A DNA stretch of 57,993 nucleotides, taken from contig JBEVGU010000006.1 of assembly GCA_040511595.1 (NCBI GenBank), positions 1 through 57,993 on the forward strand, in the 5' to 3' direction. The position numbers and the translations under genes were made by a program. Each line of letters opens with the position of its first letter. Position 1 is the stretch's first letter. Shown piece after piece: positions 49,434 to 52,519 of this stretch. A model generated the notes under the pieces. That model saw nothing but the letters and a program-made list of their open reading frames with translations. It had not been told where the DNA came from and searched no databases. This DNA is from Actinomycetota bacterium (GTDB lineage: Bacteria; Actinomycetota; UBA4738; HRBIN12).

Positions 49434-50003
49434 ATGGGATTGCTCGGCACGCTCGCGACGTTCGGCATCGGGTACGCGGCAGGCGCGGCGACCGGCCCCC
49501 GCCGCATGGAGCAGCTGCCTGCGCGGGTGCGGCAGGTCCTGCCCGGTCGCTCCGGCGGCACCGGCTCGGGCTCGACGGTCGACGTGCGGGAGATCCGCCA
49601 GGTCATGACCGCGGCTCCCCACACCGTCCGGACGACCGACACGCTGCAGGACGCTGCTCGCCTGATGAAGACCAACGACATCGGAGACGTGCTCGTGGAG
49701 GACGCCGTCGGGCGTCTCGCCGGCATCGTCACGGATCGTGACATCGCGATCCGGGCGACGGCTGAAGGCTCCGACCCGGTGAGCACGACCGTCGAGCAGG
49801 TGTACTCGCGCGATGTGACCGGGCTCGCGCCGACCGACACCGTGCACCACGCCGTCGAGCTGATGCGAGCCGGCAACGTGCGCCGCCTGCCTGTGGTCGA
49901 GAGTGGCAAGGCGATCGGCATCGTCTCGCTCGGCGACATCTCGGTCGAGACCACCCCCGACTCCCTGCTCGCCGACATCAGCACCGCCTCCCCCGACCGT
50001 TGA
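49434..50003 (+). CDS. CBS-pair protein with an N-terminal hydrophobic segment
   Basis: VMT..P, GIVTDRDI, VRRLPVV and GIVSLGD; SD GGAGG. Confidence 0.9.
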   Translation: MGLLGTLATFGIGYAAGAATGPRRMEQLPARVRQVLPGRSGGTGSGSTVDVREIRQVMTAAPHTVRTTDTLQDAARLMKTNDIGDVLVEDAVGRLAGIVTDRDIAIRATAEGSDPVSTTVEQVYSRDVTGLAPTDTVHHAVELMRAGNVRRLPVVESGKAIGIVSLGDISVETTPDSLLADISTASPDR

Positions 50004-50074
50004 GAGCGGAGAGGCTCAGGCCGGATCGCTCCCGGCTGGTTGCCGAACGGTTCCGTCTGCGGCACCATGTGCGG

Positions 50075-50323
50075 TACGAGAGGAAGGAGGTGGTCCTGCT
50101 TGCATACGAAGCTTGAGACCCTCGAGGTGATTGGCTGCTAGCCGTCCCTCGCGGGCCGGGGTTCACCTCCCCGCCCGCCGTGCCGGGCGACCGGCAGAAT
50201 CCAAACCAGTCACCGCCCCCACGTGCTCCGGCTGGTCTACCGGACGAAGTCTCGTCAGAGGCCGAAGTGCTCGTGGGGTGAGCGACAACCGAACGGGCCG
50301 GACCCACAGGTCCGGCCCGTTCG
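50075..50323 (+). ncRNA. Candidate structured RNA containing a 13-aa micro-ORF (50100-50141)
   Basis: TTGCCG-N17-CACCAT promoter, AAGGAGGTG SD, several nested helices and a terminal 15-bp hairpin. Confidence 0.6.
50290..50323. terminator. Intrinsic (likely bidirectional) terminator hairpin
   Basis: Perfect 15-bp stem CGAACGGGCCGGACC/GGTCCGGCCCGTTCG with a CACA loop, between convergent units. Confidence 0.8.
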
Positions 50324-50329
50324 CGTCCG

Positions 50330-52519
50330 TCAGTCGAGCAGGGCGTCGAAGGCCCGCAGCGTGTCGCTCAGCCGCTCCGCCAGCGTCCTCGCGAGCCATC
50401 GGTGCAGCGCGGCGGCGAGCTCCGGCTCCTCCGCCTCCAGCTGTTCGATCGAGGCCCGGCTGAGCCGCAGGACCACGCTCGGTTTCTCCGCGACCACGTC
50501 GGCCGTGCGCGGCACGCCGGTGTACATCGCGATCTCCCCGACCACCACACCCGGGCGCATCGCGCGCAGGCGCATCCGCGTTCCCTCCGGCGTCACCATC
50601 TCGACGCTCAGCCGCCCCGATTCCAGCACGAACACGTCGTCGGGTGGATCGTCCTGACGGATCAACGTCGTCCCCTCGGGGAGCGACATCCGTTCGAGGT
50701 AGGGCGCCAGGCGCTGCGGCAGGCCGGCGAGCGCCTCGCGCTGCCCGTCGGTGGCCCCGACGTGGTCGATGGAAGCGGAGACCATGTCGTGGAGCAGGCC
50801 GTCCTCGCACCGCTGCAGCCCGCGATCGAGGTCCGGCTCGAAGCTCACGATCCCGACGGAGGCTGTGACCCCGCCGAGCTTGAGCCGCCGTCGCACCGCC
50901 TCCGGCACGTCCGTCAGCACCAGCTCGAACCCGTTGCTTTCCGCGAGCTGGGCCGCCTTGCGGAAGGACATCGCCGCCGACGAGTCCATGCCCGTCACGC
51001 GCCGGAGGTCGATCAGCAGGAACCGCAGCCCCCCGCCTTCCACACGCTTCCGGATCTGCTCGAGCAATCCGTTCGACGTCCCGAAGAAGACGAACCCGTG
51101 CACGCGCAGGATCTGGACGTGCCCTCCGAGCGAGCGCAGCGCCTCGCGTTCGCCGGGCGGGCGGTCGACGTTGCTCCGGTACGTGTCGCCGAACGCCACC
51201 TCGTTCAGCTGTTCCAACCGGCTGTAGTTCACCGCGAAGAGCACGACCGCGAGTACGAGGCCGACCGCGACCCCGGGCAACAGGCCGCGAGCGATGATCG
51301 TCGCGAGGATCGCGAGTACGACCAGGTACTCGCTGGTCGGCAGCGCCCGCCGCTTGTCCCAGACCCACTCGACGATGAAGCCGAGGCCGACGAACACCAG
51401 CACGCCACCGACGATCAACCGGGGGATCAGCTCGATCATCGCCGCGCCGAACACGACGGCCGAGAGCGGGAGGAGCGCGGCGACGAGGCCGGCCGCGCGC
51501 GCGTCGATGCCCATCTGCTTCGCCAGCGCCGTCAGGCTGAGCGCGTGGTACCCGGGGATGCCGCCGAAGGCGCTGGAGACGACGTTGACGATCCCGGCGT
51601 CGCGGAGCTCCCGGTTCGTGTCGAGATCGGTGTGGCGGATCAGCTCGATGCCGCTCACGTTGAACAGGGCCGCGACCACGGCCACGAACACGGCGGTGGC
51701 GATGCCGGCGATCTGTGTGAGGACCGCCGACCAGTCGGCGGTCTCGAGGGCCTCGCGAACCGTCGAGGGTTCCCACAGCTGGCCCGAGGGAAACGGCCCG
51801 AGCAGCCAGAGCCCGTCTCGCACCTCGTCGAGCGACGAGCCCGTCACGAGCACGCCGATCGCGAACGCCGCCACCCCGATGCCGATGACCACCGGCACGA
51901 CGAGCGGCCGGTTCACCACCCGCGACGTGACGAGCAGGATCACGCCGAACACGAACGCCGGGACCCACAGCTCCAGCGCGTTCTGGCCGAGCAGGTCGCC
52001 GATCGAGCGCCAGTACACCTGGATGCTCGCGGCGACGCCGATGCCGCCCTTGAAGAGCAGCCACCCGGTTCCCGCGAGGAAGCCGCCCACGACGGGGTAG
52101 GGCACGTAGCGGACGAGGTTGCCGAGCTTGAACACCCCGAGCAGCGCGAACGTGATGCCGGTTGCGAGCGTCACGACCATCGTGGCGGCGACGACCGTGT
52201 GGAACGCCCGGTCGAGGCTCCCGAACGCGTCGAGGGCCGTGGTGGCTGCGACGACCGCGAGCACCGCGGCCGCCGCATCCTGCACGCTGCCGACCACGCC
52301 ACGGGTCCCCGCCCTCCAGGCGAGGATCGCGAGCGTCGCCGCCGCCGCGACCAGATACAGCCCGATGCCTCGCGAGAGGTAGTACGAGAGGTAGCCGCCG
52401 AACACGAGGGCCGCGAACGAGATGGCCAACACGACCTCGACGGCGCCGATCACCGCGCCGGAGGCGAGCGTCGCAAGCACCCGGGTGGATCGTCGTTGGT
52501 CGGACACGGTCCCCCTCAC
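50330..52519 (-). CDS. SulP/SLC26 anion transporter with STAS and cNMP-binding domains
   Basis: PYPVVGGFLAGTG, STAS HGFVFFGT...MDSSA and VGEIAMYTGVPRTADV; start at 52519 or 52507. Confidence 0.93.
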   Translation of the reverse strand: MRGTVSDQRRSTRVLATLASGAVIGAVEVVLAISFAALVFGGYLSYYLSRGIGLYLVAAAATLAILAWRAGTRGVVGSVQDAAAAVLAVVAATTALDAFGSLDRAFHTVVAATMVVTLATGITFALLGVFKLGNLVRYVPYPVVGGFLAGTGWLLFKGGIGVAASIQVYWRSIGDLLGQNALELWVPAFVFGVILLVTSRVVNRPLVVPVVIGIGVAAFAIGVLVTGSSLDEVRDGLWLLGPFPSGQLWEPSTVREALETADWSAVLTQIAGIATAVFVAVVAALFNVSGIELIRHTDLDTNRELRDAGIVNVVSSAFGGIPGYHALSLTALAKQMGIDARAAGLVAALLPLSAVVFGAAMIELIPRLIVGGVLVFVGLGFIVEWVWDKRRALPTSEYLVVLAILATIIARGLLPGVAVGLVLAVVLFAVNYSRLEQLNEVAFGDTYRSNVDRPPGEREALRSLGGHVQILRVHGFVFFGTSNGLLEQIRKRVEGGGLRFLLIDLRRVTGMDSSAAMSFRKAAQLAESNGFELVLTDVPEAVRRRLKLGGVTASVGIVSFEPDLDRGLQRCEDGLLHDMVSASIDHVGATDGQREALAGLPQRLAPYLERMSLPEGTTLIRQDDPPDDVFVLESGRLSVEMVTPEGTRMRLRAMRPGVVVGEIAMYTGVPRTADVVAEKPSVVLRLSRASIEQLEAEEPELAAALHRWLARTLAERLSDTLRAFDALLD

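What the first reader, a model, noticed from the sequence alone, without database searches (positions are those of the whole stretch)
50040..50323. Self-contained structured RNA with a perfect SD and a 13-aa micro-ORF
Seen: promoter TTGCCG-N17-CACCAT (50040-50068); SD AAGGAGGTG (50084-50092); TTG-started ORF MHTKLETLEVIGC (50100-50141). Helices include GGTGATTGG (50126-50134) with CCAGTCACC (50206-50214), GCGGGC/GCCCGC enclosing an anti-SD TCACCTCC (50163-50170), CCCCACG/CGTGGGG (50217-50278) and a 15-bp terminal hairpin. No downstream gene on the same strand exists to regulate. Inference: a trans-acting ncRNA, dual-function sRNA or ribosome-binding RNA. I do not recognise it as tRNA, SRP, tmRNA, RNase P, 6S or Ms1.
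Basis: partly seen in the sequence, partly recalled or inferred. Interest (0 to 1): 0.78.

Follow-up and report, generated by a model that had tools for sequence, protein, structure and literature searches.

The report
Divergent copy of sRNA Ms_IGR-5
This is a real, separately transcribed small RNA, but it is a distant member of an already catalogued actinobacterial family (Ms_IGR-5) of unknown function, whose design (a 16-base grip on the ribosome's RNA tail plus a tiny, knotted reading frame) suggests that it works by engaging ribosomes.

Summary
The element is not new. It is this genome's single copy of the actinobacterial sRNA Ms_IGR-5 (Rfam RF02471). It scores below Rfam's cut-off (27.4 vs 45 bits) but matches the model end to end. 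A model built from the window's own clade finds the same loci as the Rfam model in mycobacteria-like and streptomycete-like genomes.

A conserved promoter, a terminator and metatranscriptome contigs covering only the element indicate a stand-alone RNA of about 205-250 nt. Helices are supported by compensatory changes. These include a long-range helix and a pseudoknot that lock the last two thirds of the 13-codon micro-ORF.

The "perfect SD" is the core of a 16-nt complement to the 16S rRNA 3' tail. Start, frame and stop of the micro-ORF are kept across the phylum, while the peptide is not.

Best reading: a ribosome-docking mini-mRNA, working like the alpha-proteobacterial rreB/rreR small mRNAs. 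Its physiological role is unknown. This scan reached the same family three times before on other DNA. Novelty: new (divergent) member of a known kind. Interest is moderate.

The parts
50040..50045 (+). -35 box TTGCCG
   Evidence: Sequence. TTG is at -36..-34 in 18 of 18 same-genus homologues, with a variable spacer.
50063..50068 (+). -10 box CACCAT
   Evidence: Sequence. CAC[C/G]AT is at -13..-8 in 18 of 18 same-genus homologues. Not called by the generic sigma-70 scan.
50076..50286 (+). sRNA body. The 5' end at A50076 is inferred, not mapped.
   Evidence: RF02471 matches 50076-50268, model 1-184 of 184. R1 matches 50076-50286 at 190.2 bits. A50076 lies 7 nt after the -10 box. M. smegmatis IGR-5 starts with +1A (preprint 10.1101/2021.12.14.472595). 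RNA contigs cover 50087-50295 and 50088-50273.
50081..50096 (+). Extended Shine-Dalgarno AGGAAGGAGGTGGTCC: 16 contiguous pairs (14 Watson-Crick, 2 G-U) with the 16S rRNA 3' tail
   Evidence: The tail reads ...GGATCACCTCCTTTCT in 3 same-genus genomes. Predicted duplex is -28.9 kcal/mol against -10.1 for the core SD. 100 of 122 homologues show no mismatch over the 16 nt.
50100..50141 (+). Micro-ORF: TTG, 13 sense codons (MHTKLETLEVIGC), TAG
   Evidence: Start, frame and stop are conserved. The peptide is not conserved.
50116..50120 (+). Pseudoknot 5' strand AGACC (ORF codons 6-7)
   Evidence: Pairs with GGTCT at 50234-50238. Cognate duplexes average -7.73 kcal/mol against -6.12 (sd 0.16) for permuted partners, 0 of 2000 permutations as low. 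Visible co-changes are listed.
50126..50134 (+). Long-range helix B, 5' strand GGTGATTGG (ORF codons 9-12)
   Evidence: Pairs with 50206-50214. 96.5% of cells paired in the MAFFT alignment. 98.2% paired in 92 sequences, with 4 pairs changed on both sides.
50151..50178 (+). Hairpin H1, with loop and 3' arm carrying the anti-SD CACCTCC (50164-50170)
   Evidence: Helix pairs covary (helices 3-4, 77-83% paired). An anti-SD of 7 nt or more occurs in only 12 of 92 homologues.
50181..50196 (+). Hairpin H2 (TGCCGG / CCGGCA, loop GCGA)
   Evidence: 6 of 6 pairs show changes on both sides, 84% paired (helix 5).
50197..50202 (+). Conserved unpaired GAATCC motif just before the 3' strand of helix B
   Evidence: Nearly invariant in alignments A1, A2 and A3. 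Its role is unknown.
50206..50214 (+). Helix B, 3' strand CCAGTCACC
   Evidence: See the helix B 5' strand.
50217..50278 (+). 3' domain, a three-way junction: P4 (50217-50223 with 50272-50278, plus 50225-50226 with 50269-50270), P4a (50227-50231 with 50240-50244, loop carrying GGTCT at 50234-50238) and P4b (50249-50253 with 50258-50262)
   Evidence: P4 is 97.2% paired and 9 of 9 pairs change on both sides. P4a and P4b are 82-87% paired. The genus-level RNAalifold structure agrees.
50290..50323 (.). 15-bp GC-rich hairpin, probably a terminator for both convergent transcripts
   Evidence: Sequence. Conserved in the genus with compensatory changes, for example GC 10 / AU 5 / GU 3 at one pair. No U-tract, so the generic scan missed it.

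Best explanation
The element is this genome's single copy of the actinobacterial small RNA Ms_IGR-5 (Rfam RF02471), in a divergent form. It is a stand-alone gene. Its promoter is at 50040-50068, the inferred 5' end is A50076, and the folded body runs to about 50280, followed by a terminator hairpin at 50290-50323.

Proposed mechanism (inferred, not shown):
1. The 5' end is a 16-nt complement of the 16S rRNA 3' tail and docks 30S subunits very tightly.
2. Three bases later, a UUG opens a 13-codon frame. The act of reading this frame matters, not the peptide.
3. Codons 6-7 are tied to a distal hairpin loop (a pseudoknot) and codons 9-12 to a long-range helix. A ribosome that starts or elongates must therefore melt the fold.
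4. This makes the RNA a translation-operated switch or a ribosome-held mini-mRNA. It works like the alpha-proteobacterial rreB/rreR small mRNAs. For rreB, strong 30S binding, weak translation and start-codon-dependent turnover were shown experimentally.

In this lineage an internal anti-SD loop (CACCUCC) can additionally mask the SD. The physiological output is unknown.

My odds:
- Member or homologue of Ms_IGR-5: about 0.95.
- Independent transcript: about 0.9.
- Binds 30S through the extended SD: about 0.6.
- Micro-ORF translated at some level: about 0.6.
- Translation-driven refolding is the working principle: about 0.4.
For: Identity:
- RF02471 matches 50076-50268 on +, over the full model 1-184, at E 2.2e-4.
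- There is one copy in the genome.
- Across the phylum, full-length matches, nearly always one per genome, score from 185.6 down to about 25 bits. 45 of 151 genomes match and 22 pass the cut-off.
- Model R1, built from the window's order and neighbours, hits the same coordinates as the Rfam model in the high-scoring genomes. An example is G147:C6:409493. R1 matches 71 of 151 phylum genomes.
- R1 matches 20 of 24 genus genomes. The four misses are 65-89% complete.
- R1 also matches named Mycolicibacterium, Streptomyces, Micromonospora and other contigs.

Structure:
- MAFFT alignment: 85.9% of cells paired against 33-47.5% with slid partners. 97 cells changed on both sides against 23-40.
- 92 sequences: 87.5% paired against 36-48%, and 734 cells changed on both sides against 113-153.
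- Pseudoknot: cognate partners beat permuted partners in 2000 of 2000 trials.

Ribosome features:
- 16 contiguous pairs to the 16S tail of same-genus genomes.
- In 122 loci an in-frame open start lies 4-12 nt after GGAGGTG in all. 110 starts are ATG/GTG/TTG, 10 are CTG, 1 is ACG and 1 is ATA.
- All 122 have a stop at the same place (87 TAG, 29 TGA, 6 TAA).
- Start-like triplets fall in frames 0:1:2 as 110:2:13. The SD-to-GAGGTG distance varies between 26 and 34 nt.

Expression:
- RNA-library contigs from two studies cover only 50087-50295 and 50088-50273.
- In a third study, contigs over the upstream gene stop at 50079 and 50080.

Literature (passages and sections read):
- Ribosome footprints on Ms_IGR-5 homologues in M. 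abscessus and M. smegmatis (PMC4974804).
- RNA-seq validation in Streptomyces (PMC8079986 and PMC8780764).
- NAD-capped +1A transcript, 'validated but yet uncharacterized' (10.1101/2021.12.14.472595).
- rreB: 17-nt SD, 14-codon sORF, co-sediments with 30S (PMC5711450).
Against: - The Rfam score is below the curated cut-off (27.4 vs 45 bits). No genome of the window's order reached it.
- 12 of 122 homologues lack a canonical start. This includes nearly a whole family that uses CTG, so translation may be weak or dispensable.
- Most conserved ORF bases are also helix strands, so RNA structure explains much of the ORF's sequence conservation.
- 80 of the 122 loci were found with a pattern that fixed the SD core and GAGGTG. 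Their SD conservation is therefore circular. The five upstream SD bases, the starts and the stops were not fixed.
- Alignment A4 is fitted to the model. The sequences are related, so the counts are not independent events.
- The own genome has no assembled 16S.
- RNA evidence comes from assembled contigs. These cannot prove ends, strand or level, and no DNA run was laid as a control.
- Nested-fold predictions leave the SD only about 40-46% unpaired.
- No binding, translation or phenotype data exist for this lineage. Overexpressing rreB gave no growth phenotype (PMC5711450).
Confidence: 0.8

Rival explanations
1. It is a classical non-coding, trans-acting sRNA. Exposed loops pair with target mRNAs, for instance the C-rich CACCUCC loop pairing with Shine-Dalgarno regions. 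The 'micro-ORF' is never read, and its conservation only reflects the helices it sits in.
For: - The anti-SD-like loop at 50164-50170 resembles the C-rich seeds of Gram-positive sRNAs (this resemblance is recalled, not from a call).
- Most conserved ORF bases are helix strands.
- 12 of 122 homologues lack a canonical start.
- The family was first recovered with heterologous Hfq (title only seen).
Against: - The anti-SD loop is present at 7 nt or more in only 12 of 92 homologues, so it cannot be the family's function.
- Helices do not explain why all 122 loci keep one of the three stop codons at one position.
- Helices also do not explain why start-like triplets stay in frame (110:2:13) while the spacer length drifts.
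- Ribosome footprints are reported on homologues (PMC4974804).
Confidence: 0.15
2. It is a small-protein gene, and the 13-residue peptide MHTKLETLEVIGC is the active product.
For: There is a strong SD and an ORF kept open across the phylum. RreB and RreR peptides are conserved within their clades (PMC5711450).
Against: - The peptide varies freely outside the bases held by RNA helices. Examples are MHEQLETLEVTGC, MSDLWTCEVAAR, MYEYRTREVAAG and MSEPVRTREVTAR.
- Positions 2-6 differ even within the genus.
- Only T-x-E-V is constant, and it coincides with the pseudoknot and helix B strands.
Confidence: 0.05
3. It is a cis element of its neighbours: the 3' UTR or terminator region of the CBS-domain gene, or a leader/attenuator.
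For: It lies directly after the CBS gene on the same strand. Low-depth RNA contigs run from that gene to 50079 and 50080. The terminal hairpin also serves the convergent transporter gene.
Against: - It has its own conserved promoter.
- No gene follows on the same strand.
- Neighbours are not conserved. The largest flank cluster covers 15 of 118 loci and does not include the window's neighbours.
- RNA contigs cover the element alone.
Confidence: 0.03

Closest known systems
Ms_IGR-5 (Rfam RF02471), an actinobacterial sRNA first reported from Mycobacterium smegmatis (IGR-5 = ncMSMEG15794c)
   Same: - Full-length collinear match to the model.
- Same 5' A, extended SD, micro-ORF with ...E-V..., GAAUCC motif, long-range helix and 3' stem domain.
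- Nearly always one copy per genome, intergenic and stand-alone.
- The reciprocal model search hits the same loci.
   Different: - It scores 27.4 bits, below the 45-bit cut-off.
- The ORF has 13 codons instead of 12.
- The central region carries two hairpins, one with an internal anti-SD.
- The 3' domain is a three-way junction followed by a separate terminator hairpin.
- Rfam's consensus structure shows neither the pseudoknot nor helix B as drawn here.
rreB / rreR small mRNAs of alpha-proteobacteria (Hahn et al., RNA Biol 2016, PMC5711450)
   Same: - A stand-alone transcript of about 165-250 nt.
- A 16-17-nt complement to the 16S rRNA 3' end.
- A sORF of 12-18 codons with a non-ATG start.
- Genomic context not conserved across orders.
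- Function unknown.
   Different: - No sequence homology was tested, because no rre sequence was in hand.
- In rre the complement is perfect and runs into the GTG start. Here it has 2 G-U pairs and ends 3 nt before a TTG.
- Rre peptides are conserved within clades, whereas these are not.
- 30S binding was shown for rreB only.
- The paper does not mention Actinobacteria or a pseudoknot.
Leader-peptide attenuators and attenuator-derived sRNAs (for example rnTrpL/peTrpL of Sinorhizobium, PMC6614838; only the search listing was seen)
   Same: A very short ORF whose translation would remodel downstream RNA helices. The peptide sequence is largely irrelevant.
   Different: There is no downstream gene to attenuate, no regulatory codon run, and the element is not tied to any operon.
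Dual-function sRNAs (reviews PMC12612679 and PMC12310071; only search listings were seen)
   Same: An sRNA-sized transcript with a translated small ORF.
   Different: In known cases the peptide is conserved and has its own activity. Here only the start, frame and stop are conserved.

Membership tests
Ms_IGR-5 (RF02471) | Score at or above Rfam's gathering cut-off (45 bits) | tested here: not met
   27.4 bits, E 2.2e-4. No genome of the window's order passes, the best being 43.7 bits. This is a curators' annotation threshold for a model seeded on other clades. It is not a biological feature, so I file the element as a divergent homologue.
Ms_IGR-5 (RF02471) | End-to-end collinear match to the model, single locus per genome | tested here: met
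   Model positions 1-184 of 184 at 50076-50268. Only one real locus exists in the genome.
Ms_IGR-5 (RF02471) | Homology linked to bona fide members (reciprocal search, score continuum) | tested here: met
   Scores run continuously from 185.6 to about 25 bits. R1, built from the window's clade, hits the same coordinates as Rfam hits above the cut-off. Examples are G147, G184, G107, G171, G121, G134, G064 and G079. It also hits Mycolicibacterium austroafricanum.
Ms_IGR-5 (RF02471) | Shared secondary structure kept by compensatory changes | tested here: met
   85.9-87.5% paired against 33-48% in slid controls. P4 has 9 of 9 pairs and helix B 4 of 9 pairs with changes on both sides. A4 is fitted to the model. 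A3 is a plain MAFFT alignment.
Ms_IGR-5 (RF02471) | Independently transcribed small RNA | tested here: inconclusive
   The promoter is conserved in 18 of 18 genus homologues. RNA-library contigs cover 50087-50295 and 50088-50273 alone. Contigs cannot prove ends or strand, and no DNA control was laid.
Ms_IGR-5 (RF02471) | Actinobacterial host | tested here: met
   The genome is 'same phylum' as genomes with hits of 110-185 bits. Named hits are Actinomycetota.
rre small mRNAs (rreB/rreR) | At least 16 nt of complementarity to the 16S rRNA 3' end directly upstream of a sORF | tested here: met
   50081-50096 forms 16 contiguous pairs, 2 of them G-U, with the tail of same-genus 16S. The sORF starts at 50100.
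rre small mRNAs (rreB/rreR) | The complement region runs into a GTG start; the sORF has 14 or 18 codons with a clade-conserved peptide | tested here: not met
   There is a 3-nt gap, a TTG start and 13 codons. The peptide is not conserved (paper sections).
rre small mRNAs (rreB/rreR) | Sequence or structure homology to rreB/rreR | not tested
   No rre sequence was available from a tool. The alpha-proteobacterial hits of my pattern scan (L129, L137) looked by eye like matches inside coding sequence, without the SD-ORF-terminator architecture.
rre small mRNAs (rreB/rreR) | Co-sedimentation with 30S subunits | not testable with these tools
   This needs gradient fractionation and a Northern blot.
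Leader-peptide attenuator | A downstream co-oriented gene under its control | tested here: not met
   The next gene is convergent. Neighbours are not conserved.

The most novel reading that the evidence does not exclude
Ms_IGR-5 is not an ordinary base-pairing sRNA. It is the actinobacterial form of a much wider class of 30S-docking mini-mRNAs. The same architecture turns up on MAG contigs labelled Acidobacteriota, Sumerlaeota, Ignavibacteria and Zixibacteria. The class has the same working principle as alpha-proteobacterial rreB/rreR.

In this reading, a full-length complement of the 16S 3' tail captures free 30S subunits. A pseudoknot-locked 12-14-codon frame acts as a translation-operated switch. 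Together they report on, or buffer, the pool or 3'-tail status of idle small subunits.
Probability: 0.3. Interest if true: 0.7.

Novelty: new member of a known kind. Interest (0 to 1): 0.4.

Why it matters
For this window, the finding removes a supposed novelty. The RNA belongs to a catalogued family, and this scan has met that family before.

The family itself remains worth attention:
- It is present, nearly always as one copy per genome, in about half of a phylum-wide sample. R1 matched 71 of 151 genomes (this count includes six unpublished genomes).
- A preprint still calls it 'validated but yet uncharacterized'.
- It combines three unusual features. In the papers I could search and read, no one links these to Ms_IGR-5. 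The features are a 16-nt complement of the 16S tail, a micro-ORF of which only start, frame and stop are conserved, and a pseudoknot plus long-range helix locking that ORF.
- It looks like the Gram-positive counterpart of the rre small mRNAs.
- Rfam's cut-off misses many members. RF02471 matched 45 of 151 genomes, 22 above the cut-off, against 71 of 151 for R1. A broader seed would improve annotation.

Tried and rejected
- **Rfam at gathering thresholds** over the whole window gave 0 hits. Only the E-value mode revealed RF02471.
- **The generic promoter and terminator scan** found 0 sites. It is not suited to actinobacterial -10 boxes or to terminators without a U-tract.
- **Fold z-score as a strand test** failed, because both strands score about -4.6 to -4.7.
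- **Helix A**: genus-level RNAalifold paired the SD with CCAG-UCACC. This could not be tested because both strands are invariant. Phylum-level co-changes favour helix B. Helix A may be an alternative state.
- **Pseudoknot counted on fixed alignment columns** gave only 64.3% paired, because the loop lies in unaligned insert columns. I replaced this with a cognate-versus-permuted duplex test on 83 of 92 rows. Nine rows with loops outside 5-14 nt were dropped.
- **Internal anti-SD as a family feature** was rejected, at 12 of 92.
- **Conserved neighbours** were not found. The largest cluster covers 15 of 118 loci. Stop-to-stop ORFs in high-GC DNA are noisy.
- **Pattern-scan loci**: at E 0.001 or better, R1 did not match 8 of the 80 loci (L077, L079, L086, L092, L094, L101, L103, L129). 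It also did not match 10 of the 40 further loci. By eye, L079, L086, L092, L094, L101, L103, L129 and L137 look like matches inside coding sequence.
- **Li et al. 2013**, the original paper, is not held.
- **The search for 'rreB'** gave no follow-up paper among the 15 listed of 237.
- **RNA-contig depth** rises from about 7-10 upstream to 160-980 over 50074-50175 in X10 and X14. Contig depth cannot rank genes, so I do not use it as a measure of expression.
- **Parts without RNA cover** in X17 and X19 are not evidence of absence.
Full report
**Observation**

- TTGCCG-N17-CACCAT at 50040-50068.
- AAGGAGGTG at 50084-50092.
- A TTG-started 13-codon frame at 50100-50141, ending in TAG.
- GGTGATTGG (50126-50134) complementary to CCAGTCACC (50206-50214).
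- A GC-rich hairpin at 50151-50178 carrying CACCTCC.
- CCCCACG/CGTGGGG at 50217-50223 and 50272-50278.
- A 15-bp hairpin at 50290-50323.

The element fills a 326-nt gap between two convergent genes. One is a CBS-domain gene (Pfam PF00571) ending at 50003. The other is a SulP/STAS/cNMP-binding transporter gene at 50330-52519 on the minus strand.

The + strand folds better than shuffles (z -4.63). So does the minus strand (z -4.69), so folding energy does not choose the strand. The generic promoter and terminator scan saw nothing.

**Identity**

Rfam at gathering thresholds gave no hit in the window. In E-value mode, 50076-50268 (+) matches RF02471, 'Actinobacteria sRNA Ms_IGR-5'. The match covers model positions 1-184 of 184 at 27.4 bits (cut-off 45), E 2.2e-4.

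The own genome holds one such locus. A second, partial 19.6-bit hit on contig 220 was not found by my own model.

Distribution with the Rfam model:
- Among 41 relatives, 22 have a full-length match of 24.7-43.7 bits, and none passes the cut-off.
- In an even draw of 151 genomes of the phylum, 45 match and 22 pass the cut-off. Scores run continuously from 185.6 bits down to about 25, nearly always with one locus per genome.

I built a covariance model, R1, from 22 sequences of the window's order and neighbouring families. Distribution with R1:
- It scores the window at 190.2 bits.
- It finds 20 of 24 genomes of the genus. All 12 listed at 90% completeness or more have it, and the four misses are 65-89% complete. 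Overall it finds 30 of 41 relatives.
- It finds 71 of 151 phylum genomes.
- In the genomes with high Rfam scores it hits the very same coordinates, for example G147:C6:409493, G184:C1:928383 and G107:C1:5201054.
- It also finds the element on named contigs of Mycolicibacterium, Streptomyces, Kitasatospora, Micromonospora, Nocardioides, Amycolatopsis, Cellulomonas and others. These are 72 of the first 80 loci of a pattern scan. A further 30 of the other 40 loci match at E 0.001 or better.

The tallies include some genomes flagged as unpublished. No alignment or count made in my scripts uses them.

I conclude that the window holds a divergent homologue of Ms_IGR-5 that Rfam's cut-off misses.

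**Transcription unit**

The spacer and the upstream sequence vary. A50076 lies 7 nt after the -10 box.

In M. smegmatis, the IGR-5 transcript is reported to start with +1A and to carry an NAD cap (preprint 10.1101/2021.12.14.472595, passages read).

The 15-bp hairpin is kept in the genus with compensatory changes.

Public runs holding the stretch are soil and rhizosphere metagenomes and metatranscriptomes. I laid four RNA runs from three studies:
- X17 holds a 208-nt contig at 50087-50295, with 0 other letters and 1 gap.
- X19 holds a 185-nt contig at 50088-50273.
- Neither run covers the flanks.
- In X10 and X14, contigs over the CBS gene end at 50079 and 50080. Separate contigs start at 50051, 50067 and 50086. 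One of these has adapter-like letters directly before 50086.

These are assembled contigs, and no DNA run was laid beside them. They are therefore a hint of a discrete transcript, not proof of its ends, strand or level.

**Structure**

On the plain MAFFT alignment A3 (22 sequences), my structure has 85.9% of cells paired, against 33-47.5% when the partners are slid. It has 97 cells changed on both sides against 23-40, and 0 of 500 shuffles reach the observed values.

On A4 (92 sequences aligned to R1, hence leaning towards the model), the corresponding figures are 87.5% against 36-48% and 734 against 113-153.
- Helix B joins ORF codons 9-12 to a strand just after a conserved GAAUCC. It is 98.2% paired. 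Examples of co-changes are GGTGGCTGC/GCAGCCACC, GGTGACTGCG/CGCAGTCACC and GGTGACCGG/CCGGTTCACC.
- The closing stem of the 3' domain (P4) is 97.2% paired, with all 9 pairs changed on both sides.

The loop of hairpin P4a (GGTCT, 50234-50238) is complementary to ORF codons 6-7 (AGACC, 50116-50120). The two segments change together across clades:
- CGACC/GGTCG
- TGCGACC/GGTCGCA
- GGACT/AGTCC
- CGGATG/CATCCG
- GGATGA/TCATCC

Cognate duplexes average -7.73 kcal/mol, against -6.12 (sd 0.16) for permuted partners. None of 2000 permutations is as low. This used 83 of 92 rows, after dropping nine with loops outside 5-14 nt. The effect is moderate because the GGAC/GUCC core is shared.

I tested it here.

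**Ribosome-binding site**

The own assembly lacks 16S rRNA. Three same-genus genomes end their 16S with ...GGATCACCTCCTTTCT.

Window bases 50081-50096 (AGGAAGGAGGTGGTCC) pair with all 16 of these bases: 14 Watson-Crick pairs and 2 G-U pairs. The predicted energy is -28.9 kcal/mol, against -10.1 for AAGGAGG alone.

Over 122 homologues, 100 have no mismatch in these 16 positions and 22 have one. In 80 of these loci, the 11 core bases were fixed by my search pattern. The five upstream bases were not.

However, 7 nt or more occurs in only 12 of 92 homologues, so it is a lineage-specific addition.

**Micro-ORF**

Among the 50 loci found with the Rfam model alone:
- 38 have ATG, GTG or TTG at the SD-proximal in-frame position.
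- 10 have CTG, 1 has ATA and 1 has ACG.

Over all 122 loci:
- 110 have a canonical in-frame start and 12 a near-cognate one.
- All 122 are open to a stop at the same place (87 TAG, 29 TGA, 6 TAA).
- The frame has 12-14 sense codons.
- The distance from GGAGGTG to the in-ORF GAGGTG takes values from 26 to 34 nt, mostly 29, 30 or 31.
- Start-like triplets in the initiation window fall in frames 0:1:2 as 110:2:13.

The window has TAG where most of its genus has TGA after a one-base insertion. RNA contigs of relatives in X10 and X14 carry that insertion.

The peptide is not conserved beyond T-x-E-V, which coincides with the helix strands.

Thus start, frame and stop are under selection, but the residues are not. 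The CTG-using family shows that efficient initiation is not universally required. The sequences are related, so these counts overstate the number of independent events.

**Context**

Flanking ORFs are not conserved. The largest cluster covers 15 of 118 loci and does not include the window's neighbours. This fits a stand-alone gene.

**Literature**
- Ms_IGR-5 homologues are RNA-seq-validated in S. lividans (PMC8079986) and form an sRNA transcription unit in S. avermitilis (PMC8780764).
- They show ribosome footprints in M. abscessus and M. smegmatis (PMC4974804).
- They overlap ncMSMEG15794c (PMC10454040).
- A preprint calls them 'validated but yet uncharacterized'. For all of these I read only the passages found.
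- The original paper (Li et al. 2013) is not held.
- Searches for Ms_IGR-5, RF02471, ncMSMEG15794c and IGR-5 with smegmatis found no functional study. A search on dual-function sRNA terms found none either.
- A search on extended Shine-Dalgarno terms led to Hahn et al. 2016 (PMC5711450). I read the abstract and sections 13, 14, 18 and 19.

Hahn et al. describe rreB:
- It is a 165-nt mRNA of Bradyrhizobiaceae with a 17-nt complement to the 16S 3' end and a 14-codon GTG-started sORF.
- It co-sediments with 30S subunits and is translated weakly.
- It is stabilised when the start codon is replaced by a stop.
- Analogues with a 16-17-nt complement exist in four alpha-proteobacterial orders.
- Its function is called elusive.
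- The paper mentions neither Actinobacteria nor a pseudoknot.

**Mechanism**

Shown here by sequence comparison:
- A stand-alone, single-copy RNA gene with a conserved promoter.
- A 16-nt complement to the 16S tail near the 5' end.
- A micro-ORF whose start, frame and stop are kept.
- A long-range helix and a pseudoknot that tie up the last two thirds of that ORF.

Inferred by analogy with rreB and from the anatomy:
- The RNA docks 30S subunits tightly.
- Initiation is possible but probably inefficient, given the non-ATG start and a duplex that ends only 3 nt before it.
- A ribosome that reads the frame must melt the pseudoknot and helix B. The RNA therefore alternates between a closed state and a ribosome-opened state.
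- This could set its stability or expose other segments.

What the cell gains is unknown.

Rivals, with their evidence given in the fields above:
- A purely base-pairing sRNA.
- A peptide gene.
- A cis element of the neighbouring genes.

**Novelty and score**

The element is a new, divergent member of a known family. The same family was reached three times before in this scan on other DNA (e1-5212006, e1-755541 and e1-5052363).

The features of the family are unusual. As far as my searches reach, they have not been connected in print to Ms_IGR-5 or to the rre class. I therefore rate interest as moderate (0.4) and not low.

**Limits**
- No experiment exists for this lineage.
- The RNA evidence comes from contigs.
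- A4 is fitted to the model.
- The pattern-derived loci are biased for the SD core and GAGGTG.
- MAG taxonomic labels may be wrong.
- Supplementary files of the cited papers could not be opened.

Noticed in passing
L133:4766-4959(-), L075:5218-5423(-), L057:1320-1488(+), L126:3277-3482(+), L108:7138-7374(-), L138:831-1085(-), L162:698-912(+): The same architecture occurs on MAG contigs labelled Sumerlaeota, 'bacterium', Ignavibacteria, Zixibacteria, Pyrinomonadaceae, Blastocatellia and Acidobacteriota. R1 scores are 20.6-53.7 bits. The shared features are a 5' A, an almost perfect 16-nt SD, a 12-codon ORF ending x-(S/D/G)-E-V-x-x-x-stop, AAUCC, and a terminal hairpin with a U-tract. The family may reach beyond Actinomycetota if the bins are right.
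   Followed up: partly
L038, L039, L041, L042, L043, L046, L047, L048 (one family, f14, of the phylum sample), and L023, L049: A whole family has CTG at the SD-proximal in-frame start position, while the frame stays open and the stop is kept. L037 has ACG and L050 has ATA there.
   Followed up: partly
RF02471 against R1 on the same 151 genomes: The Rfam model finds 45 of 151 genomes, 22 of them above the cut-off. A model seeded on other clades finds 71 of 151. The current Rfam seed and cut-off therefore under-annotate this family.
   Followed up: yes
window 50139-50141, and the RNA contigs of X10 and X14: Relatives in the metatranscriptomes and most of the genus carry one extra G after 50139. 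This turns TAG into TGA at the same codon, so the stop survives an indel.
   Followed up: partly
window 50290-50323: The 15-bp hairpin lies between two convergent transcripts and has no U-tract on either side. It probably terminates both the sRNA and the SulP-family transporter gene.
   Followed up: no
G000:C220:23759-23795 (L002): A partial 19.6-bit match to the 3' hairpin part of RF02471 (E 0.027). My own model did not find it. It is probably a chance GC-rich hairpin.
   Followed up: partly
G013 (contigs C3 and C7), G023 (C12 and C13), G061 (C17 and C126): Three genomes show two copies of the element. G023 has 8% contamination and G013 is 55% complete, so strain mixtures are as likely as true duplication.
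   Followed up: no
control genomes: At E up to 1, RF02471 'rings' below its cut-off in Caulobacter vibrioides and Thermus thermophilus. Caulobacterales are among the orders reported to carry rre-type small mRNAs (PMC5711450). I could not see these matches.
   Followed up: no
L169:5944-6067(-) (Gemmataceae MAG): This contig has an extended SD followed by an 11-codon GTG frame, in a different register relative to the AGGTGG motif. R1 scores only 14.9 bits (E 0.013). It may be an analogue rather than a homologue.
   Followed up: no
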